The notes under the pieces: model-generated
The model's database searches: none
What the model was told of the DNA's origin: nothing
Seen by the model: only the letters and a program-made list of their open reading frames with translations
Virus record (IMG/VR): IMGVR_UViG_3300037422_000298
DNA from: a virus
Lineage: Duplodnaviria > Caudoviricetes
DNA length: 64,000 nucleotides
Direction: 5' to 3' (one strand)
In this document: positions 2,465 through 12,150 of the stretch, one piece after another
How positions within the stretch are numbered: the stretch's first letter is position 1
How the letters are laid out: each line of letters opens with the position of its first letter
Made by a program: the position numbers and the translations under genes

Positions 2465-4658
2465 AAACTAAACCTCGCAAGCGCGTCACGTGCTTTTCCT
2501 GTAGCCGTCGGCGAATCAAGTACGCTGACGGCCTGTGTGAGACCTGTCATCGTGTTGCCGTCAACGTCGGCCGCCGTCTTGCGATCATCTTCGATGGCGC
2601 GCGATGGCACGTTCGGTCGATTCGGCTGATCGAACACGATCTGGATCTCGATGAGAAGATCTATCGATGCGACAAGCCGATCAGCAACGATCACCGCTCG
2701 ATCGAAGACGCAGTCGCTTCAGCAAAGAGGTACCAACGTGTCGCGTGACTTCAAGCCGATCGATCCCAACAGCGCCCCATCGACACGCAACGCTCGAACG
2801 AAAGATCCAGGAGAAGCGTGAACCGCTACATCATGAAGCCGCCGATGCGCCTCGACGCGCACGGCCACTCGCTCGAACGCTTCATCGAACGCTGGTGGCC
2901 GTGGACACCCACAGAGCTGCGCCTACGTAGCCCGAACAAGAAGGCTGCAGCGCTGCAGCCGCGACTCGCGGAGCTGAAGATGGCGGTCGCTTCGCGTGCG
3001 TACCACGTCGAGAACATCCCTGACGAAGATCAGAGCATCTGGGCATGGACGGTCTGTGCCGGGCCCAACCAAGGCCGCACGGCGTTGATGGTCGTGTCGC
3101 AAGACGGCACAGTGCGAACCGTGTTGCCGCCAGAAGCGAAACGTCCCGCGAACCGTCGGAGGTCGTCGTGATAAAGAAGGTCTACGAGATCGTTACCTTC
3201 GAAGATGCCGGGTACTGGATGCTGCTCGAAGACGGCATCGGGATGGCCAAGAGCAAGTCACGGAACGCGCTCAAGCGCATCCGTGATGCACTGCAAACGG
3301 CGCAAGAGACCGGCCTGATCGGTTTGACCGTCGAGATCGAGGGCGTGAAACGCGGCATCGTGCAAGCGATCAGCGACCGCGCTGACTTGATCGTTCGGCG
3401 TACGGGCGTCCTGCAGACTGACAATCTCGAAGTCTGGCCAGTGCATGCATGTCGTCTCGTCGAGCCCGACAAGATCGACACGCCGACGCCGTGGAACGAT
3501 CCAGCAATTGGCGTCATTCCGGCTATCAAGTTGCTCGAACGTGTATTGGCGTGCGGCATCGATACGATGGGGCACGAACTTGAAACCGTCGCCGACGACA
3601 TCAAGAAGTTTCTCAAGGCACGAGAGGACGCACAGCCTACGCCATGAAGACCAACCAAGATCAAGAACATGTCGACGAAGAGGCGCCCACGCGCACGGTG
3701 CCGTGTAGCATCCATCCGCTGCATCGCGTGAAAGTTCGCACCGACGGCTCGCGTTCGGGCTGCGTGATGTGCGAAGACGCAATCGCTGACCTGACTCGAA
3801 AGGACGGACGATGACCACTGACTACCGTCGAGCAATGACTGCACTCGCGCTTGAACTACCACAAGAAGTTCATCGGCACATCGCAGATCTGTTCGAGCCA
3901 CTGATCGCCGAACACGAGACGAAAGCGATGTCTGTTCTGCAGCCGTGGGTCATGAAGCTCCCGCTTCGCGCGCAGGGCACACTCCTCACTGGCTTTCGTG
4001 GTTGCGATCTCGCACCGAAGAATCCTGTCACGATCGACGAGAGAAACGGCTGCTCGACGGGCGAAGACACCGTCCCGCGTCAGCTCGTCGCGTACTTGCG
4101 TTTCCTGACGCTCGTAGCTGCGGATCCGCGCGAGATCGACGTCCCCGGCGCGTGGTTTCAATCCAAGCCACCGGAGAAGTGGAAGCCGTCGCAGCTCTCG
4201 CACTATCCACTGCACTGGTACGGCCACCTCATGCACTGCTTCGAGGTCGTTGCCTACCTGCGGCCGATCGACGACGAGCACACCGATCGCGCGATTGGTA
4301 TCTACACGCGGCTCGTGCGCGCGCTGCATCTGAACCCTGAGACGAAGGCGCAGATGCTCGAACGCCTGACCGAAGACCGCATCGCGAAGGGCGACGTCGT
4401 CTCGTGAAGGACGAGAAGAAGGCTGCGCTCGAAGCGAATGGCTGGAAGGTCGGCGACGCTGCGCAGTTCTTGGAGATGTCCGAGGCCGAGAAGCAAGCGA
4501 GCCGTCTCATCCACAAGTACGGCCGCGACGGTGCGCTCAAGGCCGTCAAGCAGAACGTCAAGAAGGCCGTCAGCGAGGCCCAGGAAGAATTCTGGGAAGC
4601 CGTTGGCGACCTGATCGAAGAGACCTGCGAACGCCCCGAACAGGAGAACGTCTCGTGA
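2461..4658 (+). CDS. Run of small hypothetical genes (2461-2748, 2818-3171, 3168-3647, 3644-3814, 3811-4407, 4404-4658)
   Basis: Overlapping stop/start junctions (ATGA/GTGA); consistent codon usage. Confidence 0.55.
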
Positions 4659-5353
4659 CCAAGCTCATTCTCGCGCTCGACGTCCCGAGCTACGACGACG
4701 CGATGCAATTCGTCGAGTCGATCGAAGGCAATGTACACCTCGACTGGGTCAAGGTCGGCCTGGAGCTGTTCATCTCCGACGGTCAGCGCGTGATGGATGC
4801 AATGTCGAAAGCCGGGTTCAACATCATGCTCGATCTGAAGCTGCACGACATCCCGGAGACCGTCGCTCGCGCGACGGCGCGCGCAGCAGACCTTGGTGCA
4901 GACATGCTGACGATTCATGCCGCGGGCGGCCCGGCGATGATCGCAGCGGCGAAGAAAGCTGCGGGTGACACCAAGATCCTCGCGGTGACGGTTCTGACGT
5001 CGCTCGATGAAGACGACCTGGTCAAGATCGGTCACAGCCCGACGCCGCACAAGACGCTCGTACGCGACCTGGTTCTCCGGCGACTCCGACTGGCCGAAGA
5101 CAACGGTGCCGACGGCGTCGTCTGCTCGCCGCTCGAAGTTCAGACCCTCAAGATGAACGTGATCCGCGGGATGTTGTTCGTGACGCCTGGGATCCGTCCA
5201 TCGGGCGGCGACACGGGCGATCAGAAGCGCGTCGCCACGCCAACGGGTGCCCGCGAAGCGGGCGCGAGCTTCATCGTTGTCGGGCGGCCGATTCGTGACG
5301 CGAAAGACCGGGTCGCGGCCGTAAAGGGCATCCTGGCGGAGCTGACCACGTGA
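4655..5353 (+). CDS. pyrF: Orotidine-5'-phosphate decarboxylase
   Basis: LILALD, KVGLELF, catalytic DLKLHDIPETV, VTPGIRP, DQKRVATP, IVVGRPI. Confidence 0.97.
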   Translation: MTKLILALDVPSYDDAMQFVESIEGNVHLDWVKVGLELFISDGQRVMDAMSKAGFNIMLDLKLHDIPETVARATARAADLGADMLTIHAAGGPAMIAAAKKAAGDTKILAVTVLTSLDEDDLVKIGHSPTPHKTLVRDLVLRRLRLAEDNGADGVVCSPLEVQTLKMNVIRGMLFVTPGIRPSGGDTGDQKRVATPTGAREAGASFIVVGRPIRDAKDRVAAVKGILAELTT

Positions 5354-6295: not shown

Positions 6296-6356
6296 CATAC
6301 TTTCCGCGATGTCACTAGGGGCATCGAGAACAACGAGCAGGGAGAACGAAGAGCAC

Positions 6357-7166
6357 ATGCGTACGCAGCAACAGCATCAGAGCAACGGAAACGGACACGT
6401 CCCCACGCGCGGTGACGTCATGAAGCGCGGGCGCGCAGCACTCGTCGACACCGACGAAGACGCGCCGCCCAAGCGGCGCGGGCGCCCGCCGAAGATGACG
6501 CCGTCGCCGGAAGTGATCGAGCTGCCCGCGGCGAAGGGCAGGAAGGGCAAGGCTGCCAAGGGTGCCGACAAGGGCGAGCTGTCGATCCCGGAGCTGGAGA
6601 CGGCCGAGATCACGTTCACGGTTCGCGGCCTCACGTCGCTGATCGTCCACCGCTTCGGCGAGAAGTCGCGCAAGCAGATGGAAGACAACCAGCAGGGCGT
6701 CGCGCGTCACAAGAAGGCGCCCAAGGTTCCCGAAGACGAATTCCGCAGCTCGCTCTACGTGATCGACGCGAAGAAGGGCATCTACGGCTTTCCGGCGTCG
6801 GGCTTCAAGAAGGCGATGGTCTCGGCGTGTCGCTACGCCGAAGGCGTCACGATGACGAGGATGCTCGGCGCGTTCCACATCATCGGCGATCTGCTGCCGA
6901 TCAAGGGTCCGCCGCCCAAGATGCGCACCGACGTCGTGCGCGTCGGCAAGTTCGGTTCGAAGACCTCGGACATCCGCTACCGCGGCGAGTTCACGGACTG
7001 GAGCGTCGACGTCAAGATCCTCTACAACGCCAGGGTTGTGAACAAGCAGGTGCTCGCTCACCTACTCCACCTCGCAGGCTTCTCCGTCGGCATCGGCGAG
7101 TGGCGTCCCGAGAAGTCGGGACAGTTCGGCATGTTCGAGCTGGCGAACAAGTCGGTCGGTAACTAG
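6357..7166 (+). CDS. Solo RAMP/Cas7-like protein (Vipr-like effector of the adjacent repeat array)
   Basis: TVRGLTSLIVH first strand, YGFPASGFKKAMVSA helix, RYRGEFTDW, C-terminal G-rich loop AGFSVGIGEWRPEKSGQFGMF; disordered basic N-terminus; GGAG RBS before ATG 6357. Confidence 0.8.
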   Translation: MRTQQQHQSNGNGHVPTRGDVMKRGRAALVDTDEDAPPKRRGRPPKMTPSPEVIELPAAKGRKGKAAKGADKGELSIPELETAEITFTVRGLTSLIVHRFGEKSRKQMEDNQQGVARHKKAPKVPEDEFRSSLYVIDAKKGIYGFPASGFKKAMVSACRYAEGVTMTRMLGAFHIIGDLLPIKGPPPKMRTDVVRVGKFGSKTSDIRYRGEFTDWSVDVKILYNARVVNKQVLAHLLHLAGFSVGIGEWRPEKSGQFGMFELANKSVGN

Positions 7167-7182
7167 TACTTCGTCGACGAGA

Positions 7183-7214
7183 AACGCCGTGATCGCAGCA
7201 GCGATCACGGCGTT
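7183..7214 (+). terminator. Perfect 14-bp hairpin between the RAMP gene and the array (terminator or processing site); contains the GATCGC-N4-GCGATC motif
   Basis: AACGCCGTGATCGC-AGCA-GCGATCACGGCGTT followed by a pyrimidine-rich tract. Confidence 0.6.
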
Positions 7215-7279
7215 CGTGTTCGTTCTCTGAAAACCGTTGTTCCATCGTCGCGCAAGCAAGCGCGACGACGTCATGGTGA

Positions 7280-9810
7280 GGCAGTCAAGGTGCGGCGCTG
7301 CAGGGCTCGGCGTATCAGGGTCTGGCTCTGTAGGGTCCGGCAACGGTATGGTCGCGCACGGCAGTCCACGTACGGCACGGCGTTGTGTGTTTCGGCGTCG
7401 CAAGCTACGGCAGTCCAGGTCCGTTGCGGCTTCGTTCGTCGCGGCGCGGAAAGGTCGCGCTCGGCAGTCTCGGAATGTCAGTGCAGGTCTGGGTCAGGCC
7501 GCGTTTGGCCCGGCTGCGTTTGGCCCGTCAAGGTGCTGCAGGGCAGTCATGGTTCGGTGCTGCATCGCACTGCTTGGTGTCGTCGGGCTCGGTCCGACGC
7601 GTCGAGGTTAGGCAGTCTTGGTAGGGCTCGACGTGGTCCGTTCGCGCAAGGATCGTTCTGGCTTGGCGCGGTTTCGCAGTCTCGGTCGGGTGAGTCGCCG
7701 CTTGGTGCCGTTGGGCATCGCGCGGTCAGGCACGTCGAGGCAGTCATCGTTTGGTGAATCAGCGCTTGGTTCGTTGAGGCATCGTGCGGCATCGCAGTCA
7801 GGGAATCGCTGGGCAACGCTGGTCCAGGCAACGCACCGCTCGGCATCGCCGTCGAGGTTTGGCGCGTAATGGTTCGTCAAGGCTACGCATGTTTGGGTTG
7901 GGCCGTCTCGGCATGTTTGGATCCGGCTAGTCAGTGTACGGCTAGGCGCCGCGCGGTATGGAGAGGCAGTCAGGGTCTCGGCGCGGCAAGTCAGTGTACG
8001 GCTAGGCGCCGCGCGGTATGGAGAGGCAGTCAGGGTCTCGGCGCGGCAAGTCAGTGTACGGCTAGGCGCCGCGCGGTATGGAGAGGCAGTCAGGGTCTCG
8101 GCGCGGCAGTGCTGCGCCAGGTAGCGCATGTTCTGGCCGGGCTGTCAGGGTTTCGCATCGCATCGCAGTGCGCGATACGGCAACGTCCGTTTCGGCGGTG
8201 CGTGGTAGGGCAGTCTGGTTGCGGCAGCGTCTGTTCAGTCAAGGCATGTTGTCGTTCGGCAGTCAGGGCAAGTTCAGATCCGGCGTTGCTCGGCTCGGCG
8301 TGCGCCCGTTTCGTCACGGCCAGGTGCGGTTGGGCCGTCGTGTCGAGGCATCGCTACGTCCGTTCCGTCAGGGCGCGGCACGTCGGGGCCGTCCAGGTTC
8401 GGCGCGTCAGTGCTGGGTCCGACTTTGCGGGGCAGTGTCCGGCGGGGCATGACAGTCGAGGACAGGCTGGTCACGGTTGGTTACGGTCGTGCCTGGTTTG
8501 GCAGTCATGGTTTGGTTCGGTACCGCTGGTCTTAGTTGGTCATGCCCGGTCTCGACGTGGTTCGGCAGTCGCGTCTCGGTATCGGCAGTCTTGGTAGGTC
8601 AGCGTCGGTCTTGGCAGCGTTCGGTGTGATCGGGTTCGTTACGGCAGTCTGGGTCCGGCGAGGTTTGTCAACGCAGTGCACGGCAACGTACGTCTCGGTG
8701 GGGCAGTCAAGGCACCGCATCGCGGGTCTAGTTGCGTCTCGGTTCGTTTCATCTCGGCAAGGCATGGCCGTCTTGGCAAGGCATCGCCCGTTGCGGCGCC
8801 GTCCGGCCAGTTCTGGTTTGGTAGTGCGTCTTCATGGCAGTCGTGGCTTGTTCCGGCGCGGCCCGTTGTGGTGTTTCATTGCTTGGTAGGGCAGTCGCGG
8901 TTCGTTTCGGCAGCGCGCGTCTGCGTCCGGCATTTGCTCGGTTGGTCGCGGCAGCGGTATGGCCGTCGTGGTCCGTCGGCGTTTGTTCGGGCTAGTTATC
9001 GTCTCGCGCGGCTCGGCAGTTTCGTCTGGGATCGGTTCGGCCTGCTGGGGCAGCGCGTGGCATCGCATCGCATGGCCGTCTTGGTTTCGCACGTCAAGGC
9101 TCGACAGGTTCCGGCTAGGCGCCGTACGGTGCGGCCGTCTAGTCACGGTTGCGCTGGTCGCGGCAGTTTTCGGTTGGTCGCGGTAGTGCATCGTCCGGCA
9201 TCGGCGCGGCAGTCCCGTCGGGGCGTCGTCTCGCTTCGCAAGGCAAGGTCAGGCGAGGACTCGTTTGGCGAGGCAGTCATCGCCAGGTTCGTCGAGGCAG
9301 TGCGAGGCATGGATCGGTTCGGTGGAGTTCGGCGCGGCAGTCGCGGTAGCGCGGGGAAGTGCCCCGCTAGGCAAGGCGTCGCTCGGCGCGGTCAGGCAGT
9401 CCCGGCGCGTCACGCTTTGGCAGCGCTTGGCGGGGTACTGTGTGTCGAGGCAGGGCCGTCTGGGTTAGGTCCGGCGTGTCGCGGTTCGGTTCTTCACGCG
9501 AGGGTGCGGTACGGCATCGCAGTCTTGGATCGTCTCGGCATGGCCGGTTCCGGCAGAGCAGTTCACGGCTAGGTACGACGCGGCAGTCGGTCATGGTCAG
9601 GTGAGGATTGCATCGCAGTGCGCGGCGCCGCCGGGCGTGGCTGTCTTGGTCAGGCGAGGCTCGGTCTCGTGCGTCGCGGCGAGGTTTGGCAGTCTCGGCG
9701 CGGTGGCGTACGGCTCGACAAGGTTCGGCAAGGCCCTGCAGGGCAGTCATGGTTAGGTCCGTCGGGGCGTGATCCCGTGCGTCGCGGTCCGGCACGGCAG
9801 GCATGGCAAG
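7280..9810 (+). ncRNA. Array of ~42 putative guide-RNA units: GGCAGTC separator + NN + n x (GGY-like triplet + NN)
   Basis: Separators (GGCAGTC, GGCCGTC, CGCAGTC, GGCTGTC variants) at 7280, 7360, 7409, 7463, 7542, 7611 ... 9688, 9742; 31 of 41 spacings are 5n+4 (49/54/59/64/69/79); no credible protein in any frame. Confidence 0.85.
7929..8108 (+). repeat. Exact 60-bp tandem triplication inside the array
   Basis: AGTCAGTGTACGGCTAGG...GCGCGGCA x3. Confidence 0.97.
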
Positions 9811-9839
9811 TCGAGAGTGACTTGTGCTAGAGTTGATCG

Positions 9840-10379
9840 ATGGCGCGCGCAGCAACAAGGCAGTCTCGATCGCGGCAGCGATCTACGCATTGGACGTATC
9901 ACTTCAAGGCCGTCGAGGGCAGCCGGTACACCGATCAGGATGCACAGCGTATCGGTCCCGAGTTGACGCGTATCGCGCAACGCGATGGTGAAATTCGCCC
10001 ACAAGCCGTCGTCGACGAAGCACGCTCGCGGCGCTCGCCGTTTCACCGACATTTCCAATGGGACATCCAGAAGGCCGCCGAACAACACTGGCTCGACACT
10101 GCTGGACGGTTGATCCGCGCGATCAAGATCGAGGTCGTCAGCGGACCACAGCGTGCACCCAAGGAAGTCCGTGCGTTCGTCAAGATCGATCGCGCGACCG
10201 GTTATCGTCCGACCATTGAAGTGTTTCAGCGCGACGACTACCGCAACGCGGTGCTCTCGCGTGCACTCGAAGAGCTGGAAGTCTGGAAGAAGCGCTACGA
10301 GAACTTCGTCGACTTCAGCGAAATCTTCGGCGACGTCGCGCCGATCATTGTACAGGCTCAACAGCGGCTGCGAGCGTAG
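9840..10379 (+). CDS. Conserved phage protein, probable accessory of the RAMP/array locus
   Basis: IRPQAVVDEARSRRSPFHRHFQWDIQKAAEQHWLDTAGRLIRAI motif; immediately downstream of the array. Confidence 0.7.
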   Translation: MARAATRQSRSRQRSTHWTYHFKAVEGSRYTDQDAQRIGPELTRIAQRDGEIRPQAVVDEARSRRSPFHRHFQWDIQKAAEQHWLDTAGRLIRAIKIEVVSGPQRAPKEVRAFVKIDRATGYRPTIEVFQRDDYRNAVLSRALEELEVWKKRYENFVDFSEIFGDVAPIIVQAQQRLRA

Positions 10380-10382
10380 CCA

Positions 10383-12150
10383 GTGGAGCCGCGGAGCGGC
10401 CGTTGGCGTCTCGCGTTGCAGAGTGAGCTGTGCGAGTGTTTCGACTGTGCGAGTCCGACGTGTGACGAGCGCTTGTGGATCGCGTACAGCGTGCTCGATC
10501 GTTTCATCTGCGCGTTGTGCGGCCATCAGGCGAGCGATCGACGTACGAACATCACGGCGTGCAAACGCCGTTGTGGGTACGTGTTCCAAGAAGATCTTCC
10601 GCGCGCTACGGTGGTCCAGCGATGAGCGTTTCCAAGTGTCCACACGGCATCTTCACGCACAGCATCTCGAACCGCTGCCCGATTTGCTTCGGCGTCGACG
10701 CGTACAACAGCGACGCGATTCCGATCGTCGGCCACGGCAACGGTTGGTTGCTGCACAAAGGCGACTTGGTCTGTCCTGAGTGTGGCGGTCCGCGTACGGC
10801 AGGCTGGGGTGCGTACGACAACAGCAAGCGCAGTACGCCACCCGACCCGAAGAATCCGAACGACTGGCCGACGACGTGTTACGCCTGCACGAGCGGCAAT
10901 TCGAAGGCTGCGATCTTGAAACGTACTGCGCACGAAGCTCAGCGCGGCGTTCGCAAGACACCCGGAGCAAAGTGATGGGACGTCGAACCTACGAAGCCAA
11001 GATGATGATCGTCACGCCCGACATGGACACCGGGATGATCGTCTTCGCTAACGAACACGTGCACCGTGACATCGACGAGCTGGGCTCGCGCATGCTGGAA
11101 GACATCCTCGGCAAGCAGCAGCCACCCGATGCAGGCGTCTGGATCTGGGAAGGCAAGCAGGTTTGGTCATCAGGCTACCGCGGTCCTGACGGTGACTACG
11201 ATACCGACGTCGACTACCGCGACGGCACGTGGCGTCGTCCTACGGAGACCGAGATCGCACAGCTCGTCCGCGGCGAATCACCGTGGCCGAGGCCGCCAGC
11301 GGAGGACGCTGATGACTGAAGCAGAACGCGATCTGTTGATGATGGCCAACTACTACGAACCGGACCTCCCTCAAGCGTTGGCCAAAGCGATGGCGAGTGT
11401 CGACGTAGATCAGTTGCGAGCCCTCGCGCTCAAGTACATCAACGCGACCAAGGTGCTCGTCGACGGTGTAGACACCGTGCTGAGGCCGCGATCGTGAAGA
11501 CGTACCGCGCGATGCGCGTCACCCGAGCACCGATCTCGCCACCACTCTGCGCACAACACTTCAAAGAGACCGACGATGTGCTTCTCAAGGCGGATGACGT
11601 TGAAGTCGAAGAGCTAGACGATCCCTACTGCATCATGTGTCAGACAGCTGCTGCGCCCGACCGCACGTGCGGGAGCTGTGGCAAACCGCTCCACCCAAAC
11701 TGGCATGCGGTGTATTGCTCGAACGAGTGCGCGATCGCTGACTTGTGATAAGGTCCGCGGCTCGCATGAGCCCGGGATCTACAGTCGCAGCAGCGATCGA
11801 CGCAGATTGCGAAGCCTTGGAGCTTCTCGCCGTCGAGGTCCAGCTCAACGGCGCGACATCGCTCGCTAGCCAAGAGCTACTTGTGATACTGTCGGCGCAT
11901 GCTCGCCGCCGTGGAATTGCCCGAGAAACTCTGTGTGGTCCGCTGGACCGGACGTGTACGGCTGCACGTGGAAGTGCTGACCGTCTGCGGTATGAAGATG
12001 GACGCTGCTGATGGTGTCGTGCAGGTCCCAGACTTCATCTTCGACGGCCGACCTGTACTCAGCATCAGCGACTTCGGTGGCAAGGGACGTCGCCCGCTCA
12101 AAATCTGCGACGACTGCAAGAACGCAGTCGTCGCAGCGATCAAGGGCTAG
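10383..12150 (+). CDS. Run of small hypothetical/Zn-finger genes (10383-10625, 10622-10975, 10975-11319, 11312-11497, 11494-11748, 11899-12150)
   Basis: Coupled ORFs with CxxC motifs. Confidence 0.5.

What the first reader, a model, noticed from the sequence alone, without database searches (positions are those of the whole stretch)
8836..8889. One unit decodes to a Walker A motif (L-K/N-M/I-T-T-G-A-G-K/N-T); others resemble restriction-system motifs
NN series gt tt cc gc cc gt gt at tt ag reverse-complements to CT AA AT AC AC GG GC GG AA AC, i.e. LKMTTGAGKT. This is the xxTGxGKT motif I of SF2 helicases such as restriction Res/HsdR subunits. Weaker matches: unit 7675 SVWAIQAKA (Mrr-like QxK), unit 8702 IFDDEDAYPIVF (type IIG methyltransferase-like), unit 9518 AVYVLLG (GIY-YIG-like). 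Inference: the array may silence host anti-phage genes at conserved motifs, acting as programmable counter-defence.
Basis: partly seen in the sequence, partly recalled or inferred. Interest (0 to 1): 0.88.

Follow-up and report, generated by a model that had tools for sequence, protein, structure and literature searches.

The report
VIPR guide matching a helicase motif
The flagged 54 bases are one guide in a 2.5-kb phage array of the recently described VIPR RNA-guided silencing system, and its code best fits the ATP-binding motif of a rival prophage's replication helicase, not a host restriction enzyme.

Summary
The decoding is arithmetically correct. Unit 8840-8893 has ten NN dinucleotides between GGY-type triplets; reverse-complemented they read L-[K/N]-[I/M]-T-T-G-A-G-[K/N]-T.

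The locus is a VIPR system, already described in 2026 bioRxiv preprints. It has a Vipr RAMP gene (6309-7166), about 43 vrRNA guides in a "staggered" array (7284-9799), and a conserved partner gene (9840-10379).

The published rule (pair two bases, skip one, the skip falling on codon wobble) holds in this array. Unit 9458-9521 has 54 exact in-frame hits on the IVALVDEATGYQ motif of phage P63C-domain genes.

The flagged unit has no exact in-frame target in any collection searched. The best in-frame viral match (19/20 bases) is LKMSTGAGKT. This is motif I of a ResIII/DEAD "DNA helicase" that sits next to a primase in a 42.7-kb provirus. Three homologous Sphingomonas-type prophage loci match 18/20. 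A second guide (8647-8705) hits another gene of the same prophage family (family-wise p about 0.012).

A rival reading is the tail-fibre repeat NITTGAGNT, which also reaches 19/20.

The Mrr-, type IIG- and GIY-YIG-like units gave no exact viral hits. No matched gene is a defence gene, so the counter-defence idea is unsupported. Earlier scan notes on this same genome had proposed the same code.

The parts
6309..7166 (+). vipr gene (RAMP/Cas7-like Vipr protein, 285 aa as the longest ORF; the true start may be 6357, giving the 269 aa of its 95%-identical relative)
   Evidence: A profile of 55 homologues hits PDB 36pp_D 'SUSP1 Vipr protein' at E 1.9e-12. The single sequence hits at E 1.1e-5, and the G-loop GIGEWRPE aligns to SUSP1 GVGDWRP. 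The AlphaFold model (pLDDT 81) matches Csm3/Cmr4/Cas7-11 chains in Foldseek at E about 2e-6. It belongs to phrog_4652.
7284..9799 (+). Staggered vrRNA array: about 43 guides of 9-16 (NN + GGY-type triplet) repeats, joined by a 1-nt spacer (GGC-a-GTC)
   Evidence: 5-nt periodicity and unit parse. Junction words: GGCAGTC x26, GGCCGTC x8. The architecture matches the 'staggered arrays with 1 nt overlapping positions' of the VIPR preprint. No Rfam match.
8840..8893 (+). The flagged guide: 10 NN. Target pattern CTNAANATNACNACNGGNGCNGGNAANAC, reading L[K/N][I/M]TTGAG[K/N]T
   Evidence: Decoding. Kept as VLKMTTGAGKT in a related phage. Exact matches: 0 viral, 0 metagenome, 3 spurious genomic. Helicase motif I matches 19/20 in provirus G001 and 18/20 in L129-L131.
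9458..9521 (+). Validated guide: 12 NN reading IVALVDEATGYQ, the P63C-domain motif
   Evidence: 54 exact in-frame matches in IMG/VR contigs with GC 0.36-0.67. The genes are PF10546 P63C / phrog_2384.
8647..8705 (+). Second guide converging on the same prophage family: 11 NN reading P[D/E]V[F/L]VL[F/L][K/N]SG[H/Q]
   Evidence: 19/22 in frame on AEVFVLSDSGQ in a 322-aa early-left gene of L131. The relative's variant scores 20/24 at the same site. Skip 1 beats skips 0, 2 and 3 (19 against 16, 15, 15). Family-wise permutation p = 33/2698.
9840..10379 (+). Conserved partner gene (candidate vap, 179 aa, phrog_15946)
   Evidence: It is found next to vipr homologues in metagenomic viral contigs (L002, L007) and in Mycobacterium phage Donkeykong (gp50, beside gp49). 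No Pfam, PADLOC, PDB-sequence or Foldseek match.
7924..8108 (+). 60-nt guide unit in three identical copies
   Evidence: TRF finds period 60, 3.1 copies, 99% match. A second metagenome contig of the same phage (L069) has two copies.

Best explanation
The window carries a VIPR (Viral Interference Programmable Repeat) system of a roughly 241-kb freshwater phage. Bases 8840-8893 encode one vrRNA guide of its staggered array.

By the published mechanism, one Vipr protomer binds each GGY triplet and presents the two neighbouring N bases. These pair with double-stranded target DNA, skipping every third base, so a guide reads codon positions 1-2 and tolerates synonymous change. Binding silences transcription.

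This guide most likely pairs with the sense-strand sequence encoding motif I (Walker A, L-K-M-[T/S/A]-T-G-A-G-K-T) of the replicative SF2 'DNA helicase' of competing lambdoid temperate phages of Sphingomonas-like bacteria. That would block the rival's replication.

Shown here:
- System membership.
- The skip-one code at work in this array.
- Near-perfect in-frame matches to that helicase family.
- A second guide hitting the same prophage family.

Inferred:
- That this helicase family, rather than some unsampled sequence, is the true target.
- That the guide is expressed and that binding represses.
- The identity of the host.
For: 1. System identity.
- Vipr homology to the solved SUSP1 Vipr, and a Cas7 fold.
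- Repeats of 9-16 units with pyrimidine at triplet position 3 in 96%.
- The same gene-plus-array association in nine IMG/VR loci, Mycobacterium phage Donkeykong and Gordonia phage ODay.
- The published description of VIPR.

2. Code validated in this array.
- Unit 9458-9521 gives 54 exact 24-base gapped matches, all in frame, in P63C genes.

3. The flagged unit.
- Relaxing one base (ACN to NCN) gives a single IMG/VR hit: LKMSTGAGKT of a helicase in a complete 42.7-kb provirus with GC 0.65.
- The gene is ResIII/DEAD/Helicase_C and phrog_16, followed by a primase.
- Homologues in a Sphingomonas sp. genome and two metagenome contigs match 18/20, against shuffled-guide means near 14-15.
- Among 115 of its 120 best homologues, motif I reads L[Q/K][L/I/M][P/A/S]TG[A/G]GKT. 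The non-motif residues L-K-M of the guide therefore fit the clade.

4. Convergence.
- Guide 8647-8705 matches another gene of the same prophage family 19/22 in frame, family-wise p about 0.012.

5. Other points.
- The unit is retained, one repeat longer, in a phage whose Vipr is 95% identical.
- No self-target in the 64-kb window, as published for VIPR.
Against: - No exact 20/20 in-frame target exists in IMG/VR, the JGI metagenome collection or one genome per 185,579 species.
- None of the 120 closest helicase homologues has T at the fourth position.
- Six of the ten codons lie in a superfamily-wide motif, so any TGAGKT helicase scores at least 12/20. Only the four codons LKMT discriminate. 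One 19-base hit in IMG/VR is not in itself beyond chance; my rough expectation is about 0.2.
- The 9-NN sub-pattern returned no P-loop protein at all. It did return about nine tail-fibre genes with NITTGAGNT, one reaching 19/20.
- Other guides show no significant hit on the provirus G001. The 15/16 hit of unit 8894 has family-wise p about 0.06.
- No RNA data were available for expression or processing.
Confidence: 0.6

Rival explanations
1. The guide targets a tail-fibre or tail-spike gene of a competing phage. The same NN read L-N-I-T-T-G-A-G-N-T, a unit of the (AL..NTTG..NT..G) repeats of fibres that end in a Peptidase_S74 chaperone domain.
For: The 9-NN sub-pattern gave about nine independent in-frame NITTGAGNT hits in genes matching phrog_4636 tail spike, phrog_23837/6002 virion proteins and Pfam Peptidase_S74. 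One (L085...aaLNITTGAGNT...) matches 19/20. No P-loop protein appeared in that scan.
Against: The residue before N varies in these fibres (Y, N, V, L, F, P, S), and there is no exact 10-NN hit. Fibre repeats are very numerous, so family-level chance hits are expected. No second guide was found converging on these contigs. The helicase clade fits the non-motif positions L-K-M consistently, in four of four members examined.
Confidence: 0.15
2. One reading: the guide silences a host restriction or defence helicase (Res, HsdR, Cas3-like) at motif I, making the array a programmable counter-defence.
For: Motif I of the form xxTGxGKT is shared by Res/HsdR-type enzymes. The matched helicase carries the Pfam 'ResIII' domain and has partial PADLOC similarity to type IV/I restriction helicase domains, E 1.7e-21 over 355 of 945 profile positions. 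The host genome is unknown and could not be searched.
Against: The exact pattern has no in-frame match in one genome per 185,579 bacterial and archaeal species. The three hits there are out of phase or intergenic and are not defence genes. The matched helicases sit in prophage replication modules next to a primase, with no nuclease or methylase partner. The validated guide targets a phage gene family with no PADLOC hit. Published natural VIPR targets are satellites, prophages and other VIPR loci.
Confidence: 0.07
3. The guide has no living target in reach (an obsolete or drifting guide, or a target not yet sequenced), and the resemblance to a P-loop is partly coincidence.
For: No exact target was found anywhere. 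Three other guides tested also had none. The motif was recognised after the fact among about 36 decoded units read in two directions.
Against: TGxG[K/N]T arises in only 0.08% of NN shuffles. The unit is conserved in a related phage. The four non-motif codons fit one prophage helicase clade.
Confidence: 0.15

Closest known systems
VIPR systems (Vipr + vrRNA), bioRxiv 10.64898/2026.04.26.720920, with the companion papers 10.64898/2026.04.26.720927 and 10.64898/2026.10.15.759431
   Same: A Vipr RAMP homologue. Guides of 9-16 pentamers with GGY scaffold and variable NN. One-base skip aligned to codon wobble. An adjacent small partner gene. Phage-borne. Targets in other phages. No self-target.
   Different: There is no conserved 3' tail or pseudoknot after each guide, as in the studied type II (SUSP1, P. 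fulva). Guides abut through a 1-nt junction, the 'staggered' architecture that the paper shows only as a supplementary figure. The array is very long (about 43 guides, 2.5 kb) and sits in a jumbo-sized phage. Only 47% of triplets are strict GGY; GTC, CGC, GTT and CGT are common. At least one guide is aimed at an invariant peptide motif shared by very diverse phages rather than at one element. The VIPR type (I-VII) and the vap class were not assigned.
Class 1 CRISPR Cas7 backbone (Csm3/Cmr4) with crRNA
   Same: RRM/RAMP fold with G-loop and thumb (Foldseek E about 2e-6). One protomer per RNA repeat, with periodic unpaired positions.
   Different: 5-nt RNA period against a 3-nt target period, instead of 6-nt with one flipped base. 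No CRISPR repeats. No cas1/cas2 or other cas genes were noticed around the locus (only a few neighbouring ORFs were profiled). Guides are hard-wired in the array. Action is by silencing dsDNA according to the literature.
SF2 helicase motif I (Walker A) of ResIII/DEAD-family phage DNA helicases (phrog_16)
   Same: The decoded string fits the clade consensus L[Q/K][L/I/M][P/A/S]TG[A/G]GKT.
   Different: The array encodes no helicase; it carries only the antisense codon-1-2 image of the motif. The fourth residue (T) was not seen in the 120 homologues examined.

Membership tests
VIPR system | Vipr protein: minimal RAMP with RRM core, G-loop and thumb | tested here: met
   Profile hit to PDB 36pp_D SUSP1 Vipr, E 1.9e-12. 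SUSP1 R138 and D177-W178-R179 align to R225 and E264-W265-R266; R225 and R266 are invariant and E264 nearly invariant in 55 homologues. Cas7/Csm3 fold.
VIPR system | vrRNA made of 9-16 tandem YNNGG (GGY/NN) pentamers beside the vipr gene, same strand | tested here: met
   About 43 units of 9-16 repeats at 7284-9799. Pyrimidine at triplet position 3 in 96%, G at position 1 in 76% and at position 2 in 71%. Strict GGY is only 47%.
VIPR system | Target recognition by NN with a one-base skip, the skip falling on codon wobble | tested here: met
   Unit 9458-9521: 54 exact in-frame matches in P63C genes. Unit 8647: skip 1 gives 19/22 against 15-16/22 for skips 0, 2 and 3.
VIPR system | Conserved 3' tail (pseudoknot) capping each vrRNA, as in type II | tested here: not met
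   Guides are separated only by GGC-n-GTC. This fits the published 'staggered array' variant, so it argues against type II, not against VIPR.
VIPR system | vipr-accessory (vap) gene in the locus | tested here: inconclusive
   A 179-aa partner (phrog_15946) is conserved next to vipr in distant phages. It has no detectable domain or fold match, and its relation to vap1-6 was not tested.
VIPR system | No self-targeting by own guides | tested here: met
   Best matches in the 64-kb window equal those of shuffled guides, at most 78%. The rest of the roughly 241-kb genome was not available.
VIPR system | vrRNAs expressed, processed and bound by Vipr; binding silences transcription | not testable with these tools
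   No RNA run is listed for this DNA. This rests on the literature.
Anti-defence (counter-defence) system aimed at host restriction genes | Guide targets lie in host defence genes, with enrichment over all guides | tested here: not met
   The genes identified are a P63C phage gene, a prophage replicative helicase, a prophage early gene and tail fibres. PADLOC gives no hit, or only a partial helicase-domain hit. Exact genomic hits are non-defence and out of phase. Only six guides could be scanned, and the host genome is unknown.
Target = SF2 helicase motif I | In-frame match to xxTGxGKT of a gene with helicase motifs II/III and a Helicase_C domain | tested here: met
   G001 helicase: LKMSTGAGKT, then VIIDEAH and SAT downstream, with Pfam ResIII, DEAD and Helicase_C. 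The match is 19/20, not exact.

The most novel reading that the evidence does not exclude
Part of this 43-guide array is aimed at host immunity genes (for example SF2-helicase-containing restriction or Cas3-like enzymes) rather than at rival phages. VIPR would then double as a programmable anti-defence weapon. My searches could not exclude this for the roughly 37 guides not scanned, nor for an unsequenced host.
Probability: 0.06. Interest if true: 0.8.

Novelty: new member of a known kind. Interest (0 to 1): 0.38.

Why it matters
This is an unusually large natural VIPR arsenal, and the rule published this year can be checked in it directly. One guide matches an invariant 12-residue motif in 54 phage contigs spanning GC 36-67%. 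Wobble-skipping guides can therefore be aimed at peptide motifs shared across very different phages, not only at one competitor. The flagged guide and a neighbour point to a family of Sphingomonas-type temperate phages as rivals, which also hints at the host of an uncultured jumbo phage. For the scan, the lesson is practical: decoded strings are real leads, but K/N-type ambiguities and superfamily-wide motifs make naming a target by eye unreliable. Here a 'restriction' label came from a domain name that replication helicases also carry.

Tried and rejected
- Rfam on 6500-10500: no family.
- blastn of the array against 50,697 phage records: no match.
- Own genome not held. The genome search could not reach the Sphingomonas record, so no taxon-wide mismatch search was possible.
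- Protein-coding reading of the array rejected. Units are 5k+4 nt long, and the long ORFs follow from the lack of A on this strand.
- Early ideas dropped once the Vipr homology appeared: a TRAP-like RNA-binding array, Chi or primase-site clusters, G-quadruplex DNA, an iteron origin.
- Convergence of other guides on the 54 P63C-bearing loci: none above shuffled controls.
- Convergence on provirus G001. Units 7743, 8144 and 9276 gave 73-80% matches, but similar scores occur in unrelated loci. Unit 8894 (15/16) has family-wise p about 0.06. None of these counts as support.
- Exact scans for units 7679-7742, 8706-8769 and 9522-9585 in viral contigs: 0 each.
- More distant relatives' arrays (L117, L119, L122) do not contain a homologue of the flagged unit, and their arrays are cut by contig ends.
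- Partner protein: no PDB sequence hit and no Foldseek match at E <= 0.001.
- Sequencing runs: no RNA holder is listed. The DNA is held by one freshwater metagenome run that may be its source.
Full report
**What is in the sequence.**
Between a 285-aa ORF (6309-7166) and a 179-aa ORF (9840-10379), both on the + strand, lies 2.5 kb with no convincing gene. Its composition is skewed (G over C, T over A). It has a strong 5-nt period: autocorrelation is 0.38 at lags 5, 10 and 15, against about 0.25 in a coding control.

A phase-tracking parse resolves it into pentamers of two free bases plus a triplet:
- The triplets are GGC 154, GGT 89, GTC 89, CGC 49 and others.
- The third triplet base is a pyrimidine in 96%.
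- About every 10-16 pentamers the spacer is one base instead of two (GGC-a-GTC, 26 times; GGC-c-GTC, 8 times).
- This gives units of 49, 54, 59, 64, 69 or 79 nt. Of 45 constant-phase segments, 35 are 5k+4 nt long.

**What the system is.**
- The upstream protein has no Pfam domain but belongs to phrog_4652 and has at least 894 relatives.
- A profile of 55 of them hits one solved structure, 36pp_D 'SUSP1 Vipr protein', at E 1.9e-12.
- The single-sequence alignment places the window's GIGEWRPE on SUSP1's GVGDWRP G-loop, and R225 on R138. These are residues the structural preprint shows holding the GG of each repeat.
- The AlphaFold model (pLDDT 81) matches Csm3, Cmr4/6, type VII Cas7 and Cas7-11 chains.
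- The same protein, a phrog_15946 partner and a G-rich 5-nt-periodic array recur together in IMG/VR contigs. The vipr homologue and array also occur in Gordonia phage ODay, inserted among tail genes, and the full trio occurs in Mycobacterium phage Donkeykong, where the array lies under an annotated CDS.

A literature search then showed that this is the VIPR system described in 2026 preprints:
- Vipr protomers bind each GGY and present the NN.
- The NN pair with double-stranded DNA while every third target base is skipped.
- The skipped base usually falls on codon wobble.
- Binding silences transcription.
- Natural targets are satellites, prophages and other VIPR loci.

The junction seen here, with no conserved tail between guides, corresponds to the 'staggered arrays' of that paper's figure S18.

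**Does the code hold in this array?**
Yes. I turned units into gapped patterns and scanned public collections for exact matches.
- Unit 9458-9521 has 12 NN, that is 24 specified bases. It gave 54 matches in IMG/VR.
- Every match was in frame and read GIVALVDEATGYQ, in contigs with GC 0.36 to 0.67.
- The genes carry the P63C domain (PF10546) and belong to phrog_2384.
- The match begins and ends exactly at the unit's borders. This fixes how the flagged unit should be read.
- No guide matches the window itself better than shuffled guides do.

**The flagged unit.**
The exact 20-base pattern has no match in viral contigs and none in the metagenome collection. It has three matches in one genome per 185,579 species. 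None of the three is a plausible target:
- One lies out of phase on the opposite strand of a cytochrome c peroxidase gene.
- One is intergenic.
- One lies out of phase in a DUF3299 gene.
- None hits PADLOC.

Dropping the first NN gave 5 viral and 38 metagenome matches.
- None is a P-loop protein.
- About nine are tail-fibre or tail-spike genes reading NITTGAGNT, matching phrog_4636 and the Peptidase_S74 chaperone domain. One of them reaches 19/20.
- So the K/N ambiguity allows a quite different reading.

Relaxing only the first base of the fourth codon gave a single viral match.
- It reads LKMSTGAGKT, in frame, 19/20 bases.
- It lies in a 514-aa gene of a complete 42.7-kb provirus with GC 0.65.
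- The gene has the ResIII, DEAD and Helicase_C domains and a DEAH box. It belongs to phrog_16 'DNA helicase'.
- A Zn-ribbon/DUF7146/Toprim primase follows it directly, in an element with integrase, terminase and portal genes.
- At least 6,736 homologues exist, several named from Sphingomonas genomes.
- In 115 of the best 120, motif I reads L[Q/K][L/I/M][P/A/S]TG[A/G]GKT. The closest clade reads MLK[L/M][S/A]TGAGKT.
- Three such prophage loci have integrase, AlpA, a CI-like repressor, helicase, primase, terminase and capsid genes. One is from a Sphingomonas sp. assembly. Each matches the guide 18/20.

The non-motif part of the guide (L-K-M) therefore fits this clade. The one misfit is T where the clade has S, A or P, a single-base change.

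A phage whose Vipr is 95% identical keeps the unit, one repeat longer, as VLKMTTGAGKT.

**Convergence.**
VIPR arrays are reported to aim several guides at one element. I scanned 35 other guides against 107 kb of these four prophage sequences.
- Unit 8647-8705 matches 19/22, in frame, on AEVFVLSDSGQ in a conserved 322-aa early-left gene of L131.
- The relative phage's version of this guide matches 20/24 at the same place.
- Skip 1 is better than skips 0, 2 and 3: 19 against 16, 15 and 15.
- Only 33 of 2,698 whole-array NN shuffles give any guide an equally improbable hit, so p is about 0.012.
- The 15/16 hit of unit 8894 does not pass (p about 0.06). Other 73-80% matches are no better than background.

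**Weighing the readings.**
That the unit is a VIPR guide is close to certain. For its target I give these odds:
- Motif I of a rival temperate phage's replicative helicase: about 0.6.
- The tail-fibre repeat: about 0.15.
- No reachable target: about 0.15.
- A host restriction or defence helicase: about 0.07.

The caveats are these:
- There is no exact match anywhere.
- Six of the ten codons belong to a superfamily-wide motif.
- The single 19-base IMG/VR hit is not in itself beyond chance.
- The motif was picked out by eye. Shuffles give TGxG[K/N]T in 0.08% and GxG[K/N][S/T] in 1.9% of cases.

**The rest of the finding.**
The 'Mrr-like', 'type IIG-like' and 'GIY-YIG-like' units (7679-7742, 8706-8769, 9522-9585) have no exact match in viral contigs and none at 80% or more in the prophage loci.

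None of the genes identified as matched is a known defence gene. P63C genes, the 322-aa early gene and the tail fibres have no PADLOC hit. The helicase shows only helicase-domain similarity to restriction enzymes. The counter-defence interpretation is therefore not supported. It cannot be excluded for guides that were not tested, or for an unknown host.

**Novelty.**
The system and its code are already described, so this is a new member of a known kind. Features worth noting:
- The size of the array (about 43 guides).
- The staggered, tail-less architecture.
- Copy-number change of one guide between samples.
- A guide aimed at a peptide motif conserved across very diverse phages.

Earlier first-stage notes of this scan, all on this same genome, had proposed the RAMP-plus-array system, the wobble-skipping code and the P63C match. 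I tested these here, and they hold.

Noticed in passing
window 9458-9521; loci L015-L068: This guide matches the invariant IVALVDEATGYQ block of P63C-domain proteins (phrog_2384, function unknown) exactly, in 54 viral contigs with GC 0.36-0.67. A single guide could therefore reach very diverse phages.
   Followed up: yes
window 7924-8108; L069: A 60-nt guide unit is present in three identical copies here but in two copies in another metagenome contig of the same phage (otherwise 99.99% identical). This shows recent gain or loss of guides by unit duplication.
   Followed up: partly
L010 5490-5850 (Mycobacterium phage Donkeykong, NC_051648): A clear (NN GGC) array with GGC-a-GGC junctions lies under the annotated CDSs gp47/gp48, just upstream of gp49 (Vipr homologue) and gp50 (partner). 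The 'hypothetical protein' calls there are probably vrRNA array.
   Followed up: partly
L011 6612-6826 (Gordonia phage ODay, MW534375): A Vipr homologue (gene 19) plus a short vrRNA-like array are inserted, with two HTH genes, between the tail assembly chaperone and tape measure genes. This is a moron-like position.
   Followed up: no
window 8144-8212: The unit decodes to LTP[D/E]G[F/L]VAL[I/M][I/M][K/N]L. From memory this resembles the 'LT.dGf..L.m' block of Rha/KilA-N-type phage regulators. The best match found is only 19-20/26, on a 190-aa gene next to the G001 integrase.
   Followed up: partly
window 7186-7214: A perfect GC-rich hairpin followed by a T-rich stretch lies between the vipr stop codon and the first guide. 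It could be a terminator or a processing signal.
   Followed up: no
window 4655-5353: The phage encodes an orotidine 5'-phosphate decarboxylase (PF00215, E 4e-59), conserved in its relatives L071-L073.
   Followed up: no
L071 6172-9131 against window 7284-9799: Orthologous guides of the two related phages differ by single NN changes that look like conservative residue changes (L/V, V/A, I/L, A/G), or by one added repeat at the guide's 3' end. This is as expected if guides track allelic variants of protein targets.
   Followed up: partly
L010 9520-9790: Donkeykong gp58 contains a 15-nt tandem repeat (GAGCGCCGCA..GG). It lights up in the 5-nt periodicity scan but is a coding 5-residue repeat, not a vrRNA array.
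   Followed up: no
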